64,000 bases of DNA from Escherichia coli (GTDB taxonomy: Bacteria; Pseudomonadota; Gammaproteobacteria; Enterobacterales; Enterobacteriaceae): the NCBI RefSeq assembly GCF_003790525.1, contig NZ_CP033632.1, one strand, 5' to 3'. Position 1 is the first letter of the stretch. Every line of letters starts with the position of its first letter. Below, in pieces: positions 3,001 to 9,000 of this stretch. Position numbers: made by a program.

Positions 3001-6000
3001 GGGCCATCGACTGGCTGAACCGCGCTTCTTATTTTTTCACACTTGATCCATCGGCAGACAATATGCGGCGCGTTGGTCGTGGCCGCCGTCGCCGTGGTGT
3101 TTGTTATTGCATGGCACTACCCGATGTTAAAGAACGTGAAGTCAGAGACGGCGTTCTGTGCTTCCGTCGTGTGGCTGAACGTGGCATGGAGCCAAAAAAT
3201 ATGAATTCTCCCGAGTGGTGGGCGTGGCGCTGGTCCGCACATTTCGGACTTTGCGAAGATGAGAATGAAATTGCCAGCGGCAATAGTGCATATGGCGCTC
3301 TGAACCTGGCTTTCCATATCGGATTCAAACATGTCGCCCTGGTGGGCGTTGACGCTACACAAGAACCACGCGTTCACTCCGGCGGCACGCCAAAAAATCT
3401 AAGTCACCTGCCTTTGTTATTCCAGTCTGCGCGTGAACAGATTGACGTTGTTTCATGCGGGAAAATGGGAGGTATTCCGCAGATGACTCTTAAAGAATGG
3501 CTGAAGAATACATGATGGCACCCACAATTTATCACCGTATCGACGGTACCAAATACAGGAATGTCTGGGTTGTTGGTGATCTGCATGGTTGCTACACCAG
3601 ACTGATGTCCGAACTCCATCGTGTGGATTTTGACCCGGCGCAGGATTTACTGATATCGGTCGGCGACCTTATTGATCGCGGTACTGAAAATGTCGAATGT
3701 CTGGAACTATTGCAGATGCCCTGGTTCAGGGCAGTGATGGGGAACCATGAGCGGCTGATGATTGATGCGTTAAGTCCAGATGGCAACGTGAATAACTGGC
3801 TAATGAATGGCGGACAATGGTTCTTCATGCTGGACACTGATCAGGAAATATTAGCCTGGGCGCTGGTGGAGCTGGTAAAGCGTCTGCCCTATATCATTGA
3901 GTTGAACACCGGGCAAGAAACTATCGTTATAGCCCATGCCGACTATCCGGATAATGAATACCAATTCGGTAAGGAGGTGCCGCTTTTCAACGTTGTCTGG
4001 GCGCGCGAGCGTATCAGTGATTCGATGGATGATATTGGTGGCGAAATTTCGGGCGCAGATCGTTTTATCTTTGGTCACACTCCGGTGAAAAGCCCGAAGA
4101 CATTCTGGAATCAGCAGTATATCGACACTGGTGCCGTATTTTGCGGAAACCTGACATTGATGAAAGTGAAAGGTGATGGTGCAGCATGAAGATTGCTTTA
4201 GTTTTTCGCTCTGGTGGTGACTATAACGCTTCCGATGTGCAGTGGCTGGTTAATCAACTGCCAAAAGGCTATGAAATTATTTGCCTGACAGACCTGAAGC
4301 GTTTACATGTACCTGGCGTCAAAGTTGTCCCATTGATCAACCAGTGGCAAAAGTGCCGTGGCTGGTGGGCGAAAATCGAGTTGTTCCGACCGGATATAAC
4401 AGATGATCTGTTCTATCTGGATTTGGACACAGTTATTGCCGGTGATATACGCCCAATCCTTGAGAATCCACCAACCAGCTTCACCATGCTTAGGGATTTT
4501 TACCATCCACAATATCGTGGTAGCGGTGCCCTGTGGATACCAAATAGTGTAAAAGCGCATATCTGGAGTTCATTCTGGCAAGATCCGGAAGGTTGGATTT
4601 CTCGTTGTGTCACTACTGAGTGCTGGGGTGATCAGGGGTTCTTACGGAAGGTTATGGGCGATGATACACCAGCATTTCAGGATCTGTATCCAGGATGGTT
4701 TGTAAGTTACAAGGCCGATGTTGTGGAACCTGGTTCAAAATATGCGAGCGCGCGTTACTCCAGGGGGAATGGGGCATTACCAAAGGACTGCCGAATAATC
4801 TTTTTCCACGGCAAACCGCGACCTCGCGAAGTGTCAGAGGATTGGCTTCCCCTTATTAGCTCGTTTTTTGAGCGAGAATCAGAATAATATTGCTCTAATA
4901 ATTCCATATTTTTAAAACGTGATGTACACTCATCACGTTTTTTATTAGAGCAATCTACAAGGTGCACTATGTGGCCATTCCGACGGAAATATCACTACTG
5001 GCTGATCGCCTTTGTTACGCCGACCGGCGGTATCAGGCATGTCATCACCAGGTATCGCAACAAGAGACTCACCTTAGCCAGAATTTTACAGGCTGCCATA
5101 GGTGAGGGACTGGATACAAATTGCGTAGTCCTTCCTCCTTCATACTTAGGAAAAATGACCGAAGCACAAGCTAATACGGAACTTTGAAATGAGCACTTCA
5201 GCACAAAACCAATCAATCGAAAATGTATCTATCCCTGATGTCCTGAATGCCGGTATCCCGGCCATTATCCAGAACATCCGGGCCGCGCAACGCCGCGTTA
5301 GTTGTGATGACCTCACAGCACGTTTTTTTGATAATGCGGTTCAGTCAGCGGAGATGCTTCACGCACAGCTTATTGATGTTTATAACGCAGAAGCTGATAG
5401 CCATAACTCCCTGGTAGATGCAGCTGAAAATATGCAGTTGGATCTTGGTCTGAAGGGTAAAGAAATTGAAGAGCTTCAGCTGCAAATTGAACATTTGAAA
5501 CGCCAGCAACAGGACGCGATCGACGATGCGACGCATGACGCCAACCAGCGTGCTGATAATGCCGAACGTATAAGCATTGAGCTGGAAACAAAACTCAATG
5601 AAATGACCGCGATGGTTGAACTGCGGAACTCACAGATTTCAACGCTAAAATCTCAATATAAAGAGATCATGAAACTTGATCCTTTTAACCTTGAGAAACG
5701 CTATAACAAAGCTAAAAGCGAGCGACAGGAACTGCGTAAGCAGGTCGCCGACCTTAACCAACAGCTCAAAAAAACTATTAAAGATGCAAGCGAAGCGCGC
5801 GTGGCATTTGCTAATAAAAAAGCAGAGGTTACCGCGCTGGTTAATGAGAATGCCAAATTTGCGACGCTCAAGAAGGAAATGTATGGCATTACTGAGCGCC
5901 GTTTCCCTGCAAGCAAACTTCATCCGACGTTAGGGCAAATCTCCTTCTTCCCGCGCCTCCTGGCTTATGGGATCTCATCGCCTAAAGAGTTCAATAACGA

Positions 6001-9000
6001 GCGTCCTTATATCGTTTCTAAGCTGGACTTTGCTTATCAGTTCTGCTGCGACATGGGCTATGCCATTGATATCCGGATCAACGAATGGTTGATGCCAAAC
6101 TTCCAGCCGTTGGCCATTTTCCGCGAGTTCCAGCCGGAAGGTTGGGTAGAGTTCTTCCATGAATTGATCTGTAAAGAGATGGAAAGCCGCCGCCCGGAAC
6201 TGGTCCGTCGAGTTGAGTGGGCGCAAGAGGTTATGTTGGCAGAGGCAGAGCTGCCGTTCGAACCGGAATTTATTGATGATCTGGCAGCTAAAGGGCTGCA
6301 TACCCTGTTTGATGTGGTTACCCGCCGTCATGAGCAGTTGGTTGTCGAATTGGGTTTAGAGGAAACAGCGGCAAGAAGACTTCTCGATGTTTGCTATGCA
6401 CGTAGCGATGCATGGGAAAAAGAGAACGGCGGCACTATTTACGTTCGCTGACAGTTACAGTGTCACTTTTAATGCTGGTGGAGTGCGCCCACCAGCATTT
6501 TTTTCGTCCAATGAGGAGGGCATTTGAGTATTTTCAATAAACACGCACACCAGGAACGTCCGTATATCGTCATAGTTGATATTGATGGAACAATATCAGA
6601 GGCAACTGAAGACAGACTGCATTTGCTTCCGCCACCAGGTAAAGGTGCATTAACAAAGGACTGGAACGAGTTTAATCTCGCCTGTGACACTGATACTCCC
6701 ATAACTCCAGTTATTGATATTGTGCGCCAGTTATTTAACGTTTACACGGTCTGGTTTGTAACCGGGCGCTGTGAGATCGCAAGGGATAAAACACGAGCCT
6801 GGCTGCGGAAGTACGTAACAAACGGGGCTGAGCCTTTGCTATCTATGCGTCCTGCCACCGATGACAGAAATGACGGCCCAGCAAAGATTGATCTCCTTAA
6901 GAAAATTGGTCTAAGTAAAATCGCGTTCGCGCTGGAAGATAAGATTGAAGTGGCGCGTGTTTTCAGGAGGCACGGCGTGCTTACGTTAATGGTCAGGGAG
7001 TATGAAAACGCGCTTCTCCACCAACAATAATTGCTCTAATAAATATTGATTTTTAAAACAGAGAAAGTGAAAATAAAAACATGCCGCAAGGCGCGGCATG
7101 TATCCAATCAATCACAGGAGCTGAAAATATGAACACGGCATTCAAAATCATTATGGCCGCGATCTATTTCTGGCTGTTCTCTATCACTTTTGGCGGAATC
7201 GTCGCACATGGGTAAGGGGGATGCATGAAAGGCGAAGTGAAAGAGCGCGGCATGATTTTTAACGATGAGATGGTCCTGGCAATTCTTGGCGGGAATAAAA
7301 CACAGACTCGCAGGATTGTTGAAGAAAAATTCTATGGACGGGCAGTGGCCGCAGAGTTGCTTGCCAAGCATTGTCCATATGGTCAACCGGGCGATCGTAT
7401 TTGGGTTCGCGAAACCTACCGGGTACATGGCAAAGCGACGGACGTCGCAACGCTGGTTTATCGCGCAAGCGTGCGTAACTCCTGGACAGAACAAACGCAC
7501 CGGGTTCCGGTCGAGGTTTGTAATAAACCAGTATCAGAAAAGTGGACGCCATCAATTCACATGCCGCGCTGGGCATCGCGCATTCTTCTGGAAATTACCA
7601 ACGTGCGCGTTGAGTGGTTGAACGATATCAGCGAATGTGATGCAAGGGCTGAGGGCGCACCAACAGAATCGACCCTCATTGGCGATAAGCATTACCCAGG
7701 TTTCCGTAGCCTATGGAAATCAATTTATGGCGAAGATAGTTGGAACGCTAATCCTTGGGTGTGGGTAATAGAGTTTGAGCGTATTCAGGGGGCAACCAGT
7801 GAGTGAGTCAAAATGCCAAATTAATGGCAACAAGATAGAGCCGTGCGCGGCGTTGGCACAATCCCTGGAGCATGACGCTGAATACACGACGCGAAAAGGT
7901 CTGCTGAAATACAAAATCTATAACCATGAATTAATTCATTCACAAGACCTGATCATGCTGCGGTCTGGTGAATTTTCTAAATCGCCTATTCGAGTTTCAT
8001 TTTGCCCGTTCTGTGGTGAAAGTCTGAAAACGTGGGAAGCGGAGGCAACCAGTGAATAACCGCTTTTACATGATGTGCTTGCGTGAAACTGTGGGTAATA
8101 ACGCCTCATTCCATTGCCATAACGGCAATGGTTACAGTTCTGATATCGATCGCGCTCATGTTTACACGCTGGAAGAAGCCCAAAAAGCCTGGAATTGTGG
8201 GCGAGATATCGATCAGCCTGTTTGCGCTGATAGCGTGGATGCAATGGCTGTGTGGCACGTTGATTGCCAGTACATCCCCACAGAAAGCCTGATTGAGTCA
8301 GATTGCACTGCGTATGTGGCCTACAAAAAAGGTAGCTGGAACGGCAACGATGTTTACTGGCTTCAACACGGTGGATTGCCAACAGATGACTTCAGTAAAG
8401 CGACCATCTTTAGCGTCGCCAACAAAAACGAACCAGGAATAGTTTGGTTGCCATTTTCCATTGCTGATGCAGCAAAGCGCCGGACGTTCAATATCAATAA
8501 CTTTAACCGCAGAACAATGGTTCAGGGCGCAGGGTTGGTCATGCCTGACTGGTTGAAAGAGCAGAACAGAAGAAAGAAGTCGCGAAGCGGGAAGGTGCGT
8601 TGGAATTGTCCGCATTGCGGAAAAATAACCTGGCAGTACAGCCCATATGATTTTGAAGGCTGTAGTGATTACAACTGTGAAGGATGGCGAGAATGACAAT
8701 TGACTATCAGGTACTGCGTGAGGCGGCAGAAAAGGCAACACCAGACGAATGGGTCGCATTTATTTCGACGGATACTGGTACTTATGCGGTGCACACGCCC
8801 GGTGATGAACGATGTGAAGACGTTATCAAATGGACCGGCTTTGATGGACAGAAAAATGCAGAGAACAACGCTCGTTATGTTGCCGCGTTCAACCCAAAGG
8901 TTGCACTGGAGCTGCTTGGTGAAATTAAGCGCCTGGAGGACACAAATATTGATGCTATGTGTCGAATTGCAGAGCTTGAGACTAATCTCGCGGCGCTGGC

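What the first reader, a model, noticed from the sequence alone, without database searches (positions are those of the whole stretch)
4889..7046. C1-operator-like sites partition the backbone into separately repressed units
Operator-like 17-mers occur at 1265, 4889/4938 (inverted pair around a terminator hairpin), 7030, 58052, 62325 and 62789/62872. The inverted pair overlapping a terminator ahead of the 420-aa coiled-coil gene looks like a looped, tightly repressed promoter.
Basis: partly seen in the sequence, partly recalled or inferred. Interest (0 to 1): 0.35.

Follow-up and report, generated by a model that had tools for sequence, protein, structure and literature searches.

The report
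Known phage P1/P7 C1 repressor operators
The 17-base sites are the already catalogued binding sites of the C1 repressor of phage P1/P7, which keeps each block of lytic genes silent in the plasmid prophage, so the finding is real but ordinary.

Summary
The window is a P1/P7-like phage-plasmid (99.4% identical to P7) carrying a ~43-kb IS26 resistance insert. Each is identical to the P1 or P7 operator.

I built a weight matrix only from nine P1 operators that have no counterpart in the window. It scores the eight sites at 17.0-28.5 bits: nine sites reach 17 bits or more, against 0.11 expected. An intact c1 gene is present.

The inverted pair at 4889/4938 does enclose a real hairpin: 11 bp, followed by a U6 tract. 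The operator cores are almost invariant in 107 related contigs while the flanks vary. In relatives about 70% identical, the stem keeps pairing through two compensatory changes and G·U-compatible substitutions, which fits a plus-strand RNA terminator.

The pair sits ahead of pmgR (72 aa, essential), then pmgS (420 aa). "Separately repressed units" is textbook P1 biology. "Looped" has no support and could not be tested.

The parts
1265..1281 (-). C1 operator O26 / Op82, between gene 26 (leftward) and pmgL (rightward)
   Evidence: Identical to the P1 and P7 annotated operator. Independent PWM score 25.0 bits.
2172..2188 (-). C1 operator Oppp / Op83 (P7 Op(hdm)), ahead of the pmgN-pmgQ (hdmA-D, ppp) unit.
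   Evidence: Annotated in P1 and P7. Identical to P7, 1 nt different from P1. PWM 22.5 bits.
4889..4905 (+). C1 operator OpmgRa / Op86a (P7 Op(sht[a])). Its TTGCTC (4890-4895) is the predicted -35 of PpmgR.
   Evidence: Identical to P1 and P7. PWM 19.4 bits. The core varies in 1 of 107 related contigs.
4913..4918 (+). Predicted -10 (TAAAAC) of the sigma-70 promoter PpmgR, 17 bp after TTGCTC. It overlaps the 5' arm of the hairpin.
   Evidence: This is the P1 annotators' prediction. The same TTGCTC-N17-TAAAAC arrangement occurs at Op88, and related cassettes occur at four other operators. The promoter is not experimentally mapped. A->G variants at -10 position 2 exist.
4914..4943 (+). Hairpin (stem 4914-4924 / 4931-4941, loop 4925-4930) plus T-tract (4938-4943). 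Probable intrinsic terminator closing the upstream pmgN-pmgQ unit.
   Evidence: dG -13.4 kcal/mol, z = -5.2. 97.8% of cells paired across 25 distinct sequences, with 2 pairs changed on both sides and 15 one-sided changes that keep G·U on the plus strand.
4938..4954 (-). C1 operator OpmgRb / Op86b (P7 Op(sht[b])). It overlaps the T-tract of the hairpin and lies about +13 to +30 of the predicted PpmgR start.
   Evidence: Identical to P1 and P7. PWM 20.8 bits. It varies in 1 of 107 contigs while the adjacent 4955-4960 is highly polymorphic.
4969..5187 (+). pmgR (P7 shtA), 72 aa, first gene of the controlled unit
   Evidence: Annotated in P1 and P7. [quoted passage not shown]
5189..6451 (+). pmgS (P7 shtB), 420 aa, coiled-coil protein.
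   Evidence: Scored non-essential in a CRISPRi screen and in a deletion survey cited there (PMC10695390).
6471..6499 (+). Strong terminator-like hairpin closing the pmgR-pmgS unit
   Evidence: 11-bp stem with 6 G-C pairs, followed by T5.
7030..7046 (+). C1 operator OpmgT / Op88 (P7 Op(hea)), at the head of the next rightward unit
   Evidence: Identical to P7, 1 nt different from P1. PWM 28.5 bits.
58052..58068 (+). C1 operator Olpa / Op94, controlling lpa (late promoter activator)
   Evidence: Identical to P1. PWM 17.0 bits.
61379..62230 (-). c1 repressor gene, intact, 283 aa
   Evidence: 282/283 identical to P1 C1.100.
62314..62341 (.). Bivalent operator Oc1ab / Op99ab: Oc1b at 62314-62330 (plus strand) and Oc1a at 62325-62341 (minus strand), over the c1 promoter
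   Evidence: Identical to P1. Oc1a scores 21.3 bits; Oc1b scores only 1.8 bits.
62497..62513 (-). Weak C1 operator Oc1c / Op99c, inside coi.
   Evidence: Identical to P1. PWM 6.7 bits.
62789..62805 (-). C1 operator Oc1d / Op99d, over promoter P1coi
   Evidence: Identical to P1. PWM 24.5 bits.
62872..62888 (+). C1 operator Oc1e / Op99e, next to promoter P4cre
   Evidence: Identical to P1. PWM 22.0 bits.

Best explanation
The 17-mers are the operator set of the C1 immunity repressor of a P1/P7-type plasmid prophage.

How the system works: C1 is encoded at 61379-62230. It binds each asymmetric site and shuts off the sigma-70 promoter that the site overlaps or adjoins. Each lytic transcription unit is therefore silenced on its own while the element replicates as a plasmid. 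When C1 is inactivated by Coi or Ant, all units fire together.

At 4889-4954, two operators in convergent orientation bracket the predicted pmgR-pmgS promoter. Op86a covers its -35. Op86b lies in the first ~30 transcribed bases. One repressor would then block polymerase binding and a second would act as a roadblock, giving a double lock (inferred).

The hairpin plus U-tract between the operators most likely terminates transcripts arriving from the upstream pmgN-pmgQ unit. The predicted -10 and start point lie inside the 5' arm of the hairpin. Transcripts born at PpmgR would therefore lack that arm and escape termination (inferred).

What is shown: site identity with annotated P1/P7 operators, statistical enrichment, purifying selection on the operator cores, and maintenance of the RNA stem.

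What is inferred: the position of the promoter, terminator activity, and roadblock action.
For: Identity of the element and the sites:
- The window is 99.4% identical to P7 and 98.4% to P1.
- Every site coincides with a 'phage repressor C1' protein_bind feature in AF234172 and AF503408, and is identical to P1 and/or P7.
- The consensus scan gives 9 hits against 0.29 expected.
- The independent PWM gives nine sites of 17 bits or more against 0.11 expected, all of them in the backbone.
- c1 is intact, 282/283 identical to P1.

Conservation of the operator network:
- Cronobacter phage JK004 has a C1 only 76.7% identical. The same PWM finds 21 sites of 15 bits or more there.
- 20 of those 21 are intergenic although only 9.9% of that genome is intergenic (binomial P = 1.6e-19).
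- They include the orthologues of Op86a/b and Op88.

Selection on the Op86 operator cores:
- In contigs collected without reference to the operators, variable positions number 1 of 26 in the cores (among the 104 contigs that align without gaps) against 20 of 54 in the other non-coding positions. Fisher P = 0.001.

Hairpin:
- Fold z = -5.2.
- 97.8% of cells paired. Two pairs switch G-C to A-U and A-U to G-C in the 70%-identical lineage. Fifteen one-sided changes give G·U on the plus strand only, against six that break pairing.

Promoter:
- Predicted by the P1 annotators.
- The same TTGCTC-N17-TA(A/T)NNN cassette recurs at six operators.

Literature:
- 22 dispersed C1 operators and the asymmetric 17-bp consensus (PMC8546580).
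Against: - The PpmgR promoter is only a prediction. Its -10 (TAAAAC) is weak, and position 2 is G in JK004 and in three IMG/VR contigs.
- The generic promoter scan did not call the promoter and the generic terminator scan did not call the hairpin.
- The compensatory changes come from one diverged lineage (three sequences), so they represent few independent events.
- Six singleton variants break a stem pair.
- No binding, transcription-start or 3'-end data for this locus could be read. The primary papers (Lobocka 2004, Velleman 1987) are not held.
Confidence: 0.88

Rival explanations
1. Micro-loop model. C1 molecules bound at Op86a and Op86b contact each other and bend or loop the 32-bp spacer that carries the promoter core. 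This would give cooperative, extra-tight repression.
For: - The two sites are a perfect 13-bp inverted repeat at a fixed spacing: 40 nt between cores in 109 of 111 contigs and in all three diverged relatives.
- From my own recollection, not verified here, C1-mediated looping has been described for the Op99 operators (Heinzel et al. 1994).
Against: - The P1 and P7 records call both sites monovalent.
- The 49-bp centre-to-centre distance is very short for a protein-bridged loop.
- The constant spacing is equally explained by the hairpin that fills the spacer and by the close relatedness of the contigs.
- No C1 structure exists to model contacts (0 PDB hits).
- I found no literature support.
Confidence: 0.12
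2. Leader-attenuator model. The real pmgR promoter lies upstream of the hairpin, for example using the TAATAT at 4885-4890 as -10. The hairpin would then be a terminator in the leader of the pmgR-pmgS transcript itself, so expression would need antitermination or would be kept low by premature termination.
For: - A -10-like TAATAT/AATAAT abuts Op86a, and a similar one abuts Op88.
- Variants that damage the annotated -10 (TGAAAC) are tolerated as long as stem pairing is kept.
Against: - No acceptable -35 lies upstream of TAATAT (read directly from the sequence).
- TAATAT contains the pmgQ stop codon and the first operator bases, which explains its conservation.
- pmgR is essential (PMC9024508), so constitutive premature termination would be costly.
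- No antiterminator for this site is known to me.
Confidence: 0.08
3. The inverted repeat is only an extension of an RNA or DNA hairpin, or a chance AT-rich match, and is not a protein-binding site.
For: The long fold of 4880-4965 pairs the two operator arms as an outer stem (dG -26.9 kcal/mol).
Against: - Both arms match a PWM built from unrelated P1 operators at 19-21 bits.
- Identical cores occur at single, unpaired operators elsewhere.
- Both are annotated as C1 sites in P1 and P7.
- The arms show no covariation at all. They are invariant, as expected for a protein site, unlike the inner stem.
Confidence: 0.01

Closest known systems
Phage P1 operators OpmgRa/OpmgRb (former Op86a/Op86b) and P7 Op(sht[a])/Op(sht[b])
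   Same: Same position between pmgQ/hdmD and pmgR/shtA. Identical 17-mers, the same hairpin, and the same downstream genes.
   Different: Nothing of substance. The host element here additionally carries a ~43-kb IS26 resistance region elsewhere in the backbone.
P1 bivalent operators Obanab (Op72ab) and Oc1ab (Op99ab)
   Same: Two C1 17-mers in convergent inverted orientation over one promoter. Removing 4902-4939 from Op86 leaves a 28-mer almost identical to Obanab.
   Different: In the bivalent operators the two 17-mers overlap, with an 11-bp offset. In Op86 they are 49 bp apart, and the spacer carries the predicted -10 and a terminator hairpin.
Stoperators of mycobacteriophage L5 and Cluster A phages (gp71 repressor)
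   Same: Many copies of an asymmetric repressor site are dispersed through the genome. Sites inside transcribed DNA can block elongation, which is what is proposed for Op86b.
   Different: The repressor family is unrelated. Stoperators are 13 bp, far more numerous, and orientation-biased along long transcripts. P1 operators mostly sit at promoters. This comparison comes from my own knowledge; PMC6550527 was only listed, not read.
Lambda OL-OR and lac O1/O2/O3 looping
   Same: Multiple operators serve one repressor, and repression is strengthened by a second site.
   Different: Those loops span 92 bp to 2.4 kb and need oligomeric repressors. By my recollection of the literature, C1 binds as a monomer. 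No loop is shown at Op86.

Membership tests
P1/P7 C1-controlled operators | Match to the asymmetric 17-bp consensus ATTGCTCTAATAAATTT | tested here: met
   1-3 mismatches at all eight sites. 17.0-28.5 bits with a PWM trained on nine independent P1 operators; nine sites of 17 bits or more against 0.11 expected.
P1/P7 C1-controlled operators | Positional and sequence orthology to operators annotated in the reference genomes | tested here: met
   Each site coincides with a protein_bind 'phage repressor C1' feature of AF234172 and/or AF503408, and is identical to P1 and/or P7.
P1/P7 C1-controlled operators | Cognate repressor gene present in the same element | tested here: met
   c1 at 61379-62230 (minus strand), 283 aa, 282/283 identical to P1 C1.100. 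coi is also intact.
P1/P7 C1-controlled operators | Location at or next to promoters of lytic transcription units (intergenic) | tested here: met
   All nine strong sites are intergenic and overlap or adjoin the promoters annotated in P1. In the diverged relative JK004, 20 of 21 PWM sites are intergenic (P = 1.6e-19).
P1/P7 C1-controlled operators | Sequence conserved under selection relative to flanks | tested here: met
   For Op86a/b, 1 of 26 core positions is variable against 20 of 54 neighbouring non-coding positions, Fisher P = 0.001. The cores are unchanged in relatives 70% identical.
P1/P7 C1-controlled operators | Physical binding of C1 and derepression on C1 inactivation | not testable with these tools
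   This needs footprinting or reporter assays. The primary binding papers are not held.
Intrinsic (Rho-independent) terminator, for the hairpin 4914-4943 | Stable stem-loop immediately followed by a U-tract on the transcribed strand | tested here: met
   Core stem CGUGAUG/CAUCACG (4 G-C pairs) extended by A4/U4, loop of 6, then U6. dG -13.4 kcal/mol, z = -5.2.
Intrinsic (Rho-independent) terminator, for the hairpin 4914-4943 | Detection by a standard consensus scan | tested here: not met
   Not listed by scan_promoters_terminators. I attribute this to the rule counting T only after the maximal 11-bp stem, which leaves 4 T in 8 bases; the tool gives no reason.
Intrinsic (Rho-independent) terminator, for the hairpin 4914-4943 | Stem maintained in evolution as RNA (compensatory or G·U changes) | tested here: met
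   97.8% of cells paired; 2 pairs changed on both sides; 15 G·U-preserving against 6 breaking changes; the slid controls reach only 40-70% paired. Caveat: few independent lineages.
Intrinsic (Rho-independent) terminator, for the hairpin 4914-4943 | Transcripts actually end there | not testable with these tools
   Needs Term-seq or in vitro termination assays.
Bivalent C1 operator (Op72ab / Op99ab type) | Two inverted 17-mers overlapping with an 11-bp offset | tested here: not met
   The offset is 49 bp (4889 against 4938), with a 32-bp spacer between the 17-mers. P1 annotates both as monovalent.
Repressor-mediated DNA loop | Protein-protein contact between repressors on separated operators, with cooperative binding | not testable with these tools
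   No structure and no readable literature. Only the constant spacing is seen.

The most novel reading that the evidence does not exclude
Op86 may be a distinct composite module: a former bivalent C1 operator split by a 38-bp insert that carries both the -10 of a promoter and an RNA-selected terminator hairpin. One 66-bp element would then do three things at once. It would end the upstream operon, start the next one with transcripts that are immune to the terminator, and place a repressor on each side. C1 at Op86b would sit on the terminator's U-tract, so that insulation between the two units might itself depend on the repressor. To my knowledge, nobody has tested whether C1 occupancy changes termination or read-through at this junction.
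Probability: 0.15. Interest if true: 0.3.

Novelty: already known. Interest (0 to 1): 0.08.

Why it matters
For discovery it matters little. The sites, their repressor and the idea of many separately repressed units are classic P1 biology and are already annotated base for base in GenBank.

The practical value is modest:
- The immunity circuit (c1, coi and all backbone operators in the window) is intact in a P1/P7-type phage-plasmid that has acquired a large multiresistance region. The element therefore probably still behaves as a regulated, inducible prophage.
- The comparative data give the first explicit sequence-level support I am aware of that the hairpin between Op86a and Op86b is selected as a plus-strand RNA structure.

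Tried and rejected
- **Generic promoter and terminator scans**. They called neither PpmgR nor the 4914-4941 hairpin. I did not take this as evidence against them, because the tail rule seems to explain the terminator miss and the promoter is admittedly weak.
- **Primary literature.** Lobocka et al. 2004 (by DOI and as PMC523184) and Velleman et al. 1987 (PMC298904) are not held. Full-text searches for Op86, Op72/Op99 and C1 looping gave nothing relevant.
- **Structure and family searches.** C1 has no PDB relative. C1, PmgR and PmgQ have no Pfam family.
- **More distant homologues.** A tblastn search with PmgS found only JK004 (69%) and two Pseudomonas-phage records (15G and 15b) at 24%. Phage D6 gave no PmgS match. 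So the comparison rests on one diverged lineage plus many near-identical contigs.
- **Late-promoter check.** No match within two mismatches to the Lpa box consensus AAGTGACTT lies upstream of pmgR (4701-4968). A weak 2-mismatch match at 5062 inside pmgR was not pursued.
- **Extra PWM hits.** The hits at 60566 (16.35 bits, in pacB) and 6905 (14.4 bits, in pap) are not counted as operators. They are coding, unannotated, and within the range expected by chance (0.25 and 0.62 sites expected per window).
- **First pair-count attempt.** It failed on a string-length error and was redone on a larger alignment.

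
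Full report
**What the window is.** Window 4000-8000 is 99.4% identical to phage P7 (AF503408) and 98.4% to P1 (AF234172). Local BLAST gives these correspondences:
- window 1-8729 matches P7 79645-88373;
- window 52691-53999 matches P7 90336-91644;
- window 56648-62948 matches P1 88500-94800;
- window 62949-64000 matches P1 1-1052.

Between about 9096 and 52690 lies an IS26-rich multiresistance region (oqxAB, mph(A)/mrx, aph(3')-IIa and others). So this is a P1/P7-type phage-plasmid with a large cargo insert. The 'backbone' of the finding is the phage part.

**Checking the observation.** A scan with the P1 operator consensus ATTGCTCTAATAAATTT, allowing three mismatches, returns nine hits against 0.29 expected, and none of 100 shuffles reaches nine.

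- I took the nine C1 operators annotated in P1 that have no counterpart in the window: Oref, Omat, Ossb, Oc4, OrepL, Orlf, Odmt, Obana and Obanb.
- I built a log-odds matrix from them and scanned the window.
- The eight sites score 17.0-28.5 bits.
- Nine sites reach 17 bits or more, against 0.11 expected from 400 first-order Markov windows, or 0.055 with backbone composition.
- All strong sites lie in the phage backbone and none in the resistance insert.

**What the sites are.** The richly annotated P1 record and the P7 record carry 'phage repressor C1' protein_bind features at every one of these positions.

| Window site | Operator |
|---|---|
| 1265 | O26 (Op82) |
| 2172 | Oppp (Op83) |
| 4889 | OpmgRa (Op86a) |
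| 4938 | OpmgRb (Op86b) |
| 7030 | OpmgT (Op88) |
| 58052 | Olpa (Op94) |
| 62325 | Oc1a (Op99a) |
| 62789 | Oc1d (Op99d) |
| 62872 | Oc1e (Op99e) |

- The window's 17-mers are identical to P1 and/or P7 at all of them.
- Two further annotated operators are present but weak by the matrix: Oc1b (62314, 1.8 bits) and Oc1c (62497, 6.7 bits).
- The repressor gene c1 is intact at 61379-62230, 282/283 identical to P1 C1.100. coi is intact next to it.
- The published description is that C1 binds 22 operators dispersed over P1 DNA, with this asymmetric 17-bp consensus, to repress lytic functions such as repL and lpa (PMC8546580, citing Lobocka et al. 2004).

**A test in a diverged relative.** Cronobacter phage JK004 encodes a C1 only 76.7% identical. 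Its pmgQ-pmgR region is about 70% identical in DNA.
- The same independent matrix finds 21 sites of 15 bits or more in its 93.8-kb genome.
- 20 of them are intergenic although only 9.9% of the genome is intergenic (binomial P = 1.6e-19).
- They include the orthologues of Op86a/b, Op88, Op94 and Op99a/d/e.

The operator network, and its placement at the heads of gene blocks, is conserved well beyond P1/P7.

**The inverted pair at 4889/4938.** The sequence reads ATTGCTCTAATAA-TTCCATATTTTT-AAAACGTGATG-TACACT-CATCACGTTTT-TT-ATTAGAGCAAT.
- The outer 13-bp arms are a perfect inverted repeat. The inner 11-bp arms are another.
- The inner hairpin folds at -13.4 kcal/mol (z = -5.2) and is followed by six U.
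- The simple terminator scan did not list it, most likely because it counts T only after the maximal stem.

It was scored non-essential (PMC10695390).

**Selection on the operators.** I collected IMG/VR contigs by an exact 33-nt anchor in pmgR, so they were chosen without reference to the operators. I then tabulated variation upstream in the 104 of 107 contigs that align without gaps.
- In the 26 core operator positions there is one variable site, a singleton G->A giving ATTAC, which is the natural Obanb variant. One of the three excluded contigs (L122) also carries an Op86b core change, so 2 of 107 contigs vary in a core.
- In the other 54 non-coding positions, 20 are variable. Several are at high frequency immediately next to Op86b, at 4955-4960.
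- Fisher P = 0.001.
- In JK004, in Salmonella plasmid pCVMN1543 and in contig L072 (all about 70% identical), both cores are unchanged while the flanks have diverged.

**Selection on the hairpin.** Results across 25 distinct sequences:
- 97.8% of stem cells pair, against 40-70% when the partner is slid by one to three columns.
- Two pairs are changed on both sides in the diverged lineage (G-C to A-U and A-U to G-C).
- 15 cells carry one-sided changes that keep a G·U pair, against 6 that break pairing.
- The G·U pairs would be C·A mismatches in a minus-strand transcript or in a DNA cruciform. The constraint therefore acts on plus-strand RNA.

Caveat: the double changes come from one lineage, so the number of independent events is small.

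**Proposed mechanism at this junction.** The P1 annotators predicted promoter PpmgR with -35 TTGCTC inside Op86a (window 4890-4895) and -10 TAAAAC (4913-4918).
- The same TTGCTC-N17-TAAAAC arrangement is present at Op88.
- TTGCTC-N17-TA(A/T)NNN, preceded by a T-run, recurs at Oc4, OrepL, Odmt and Oc1e. This supports the idea of a recurrent operator-promoter cassette.
- With that promoter, transcription would begin near 4925, in the hairpin loop.
- Transcripts born there would lack the 5' arm and escape the terminator. Transcripts arriving from the Op83-controlled pmgN-pmgQ unit would carry the whole hairpin and stop.
- Op86a would exclude polymerase from the -35. Op86b, at about +13 to +30, would act as a roadblock.

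This is inference. Against it, the -10 is weak, and its critical second base is G in JK004 and in three contigs. These are changes the hairpin tolerates as G·U. A rival attenuator model, with a promoter upstream of the hairpin, cannot be excluded. It lacks a plausible -35, and it would throttle an essential gene.

**The 'loop'.**
- Both sites are annotated as monovalent.
- They are 49 bp apart centre to centre, unlike the true bivalent operators Obanab and Oc1ab, where the two 17-mers overlap with an 11-bp offset.
- Removing 4902-4939 turns Op86 into a 28-mer nearly identical to Obanab. Op86 may therefore be a bivalent operator split by the -10/hairpin segment. That is a historical speculation.
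- The constant 40-nt spacing is explained by the hairpin.
- No structure of C1 exists, and I could read no study of looping at this site.

The loop is unsupported rather than refuted.

**Verdict.** Its specific 'looped' claim has no support. Novelty: already known. Interest: low.

Noticed in passing
window 9096-52690: A ~43-kb multiresistance region with ten IS26 copies, carrying oqxAB, mph(A)/mrx, aph(3')-IIa and other genes. It interrupts an ead/Ea22-like gene of the P7-like backbone. The backbone ends at 9095, and fragments of P7 sequence reappear at 49229-50575. No PLSDB record holds the same junction.
   Followed up: partly
window 4889-4918, 7030-7059, 62872-62901; P1 Oc4, OrepL, Odmt (L005 8140, 9810, 25145): Six C1 operators share an extended ~35-bp cassette: TTGCTC, 17 bp ending in a T-run, then TA(A/T)NNN. 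The operator seems to bring its own -35 and a -10 at fixed spacing. Op86a and Op88 have the identical -10, TAAAAC.
   Followed up: partly
window 4889-4954: Deleting 4902-4939 leaves ATTGCTCTAATAATTTTATTAGAGCAAT. This is almost the same as the bivalent ban operator ATTGCTCTAATAAATTTATTAGTGTAAT, as if Op86 were a bivalent operator split by a 38-bp insert carrying the -10 and the hairpin.
   Followed up: no
window 60566-60582 (-) and 6905-6921 (+): Two unannotated operator-like matches inside coding sequence: 16.35 bits in pacB and 14.4 bits in pap. Both are within the range expected by chance, but not excluded as weak internal C1 sites.
   Followed up: no
window 4914 (first A of the 5' stem arm, position 2 of the predicted -10): An A->G change (TAAAAC to TGAAAC) occurs in three IMG/VR contigs and in JK004. 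It keeps a G·U pair in the hairpin but should cripple the annotated -10. This hints that the hairpin is under stronger constraint than the predicted promoter.
   Followed up: partly
window 7079-7101: A G+C-rich hairpin lies between Op88 and the next gene. It has its T-tail only on the minus strand, so it would stop leftward (antisense) transcription, not the Op88-controlled transcript.
   Followed up: no
window 5062-5086 (+): A weak match to the Lpa-dependent late-promoter box (AAGAGACTC-N4-TAGCCA against AAGTGACTT-N4-TANNNT) lies inside pmgR, upstream of pmgS. No such box lies upstream of pmgR itself.
   Followed up: no
window 7225 onward: Downstream of Op88 the window follows the P7 gene set (upf86.8, upf87.4, upf87.6, Ead-like upf88.3) rather than P1's pmgT-pmgV. 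Identity to P1 stops at window 7280.
   Followed up: no
L128/L129 (Cronobacter phage JK004, MZ188976): All 125 genes are deposited as 'hypothetical protein', yet the genome is a clear P1-like phage. It has 21 C1-operator-like sites, 20 of them intergenic, including tandem or paired sites at 29881/29909, 48096/48180 and 66972/67021.
   Followed up: partly
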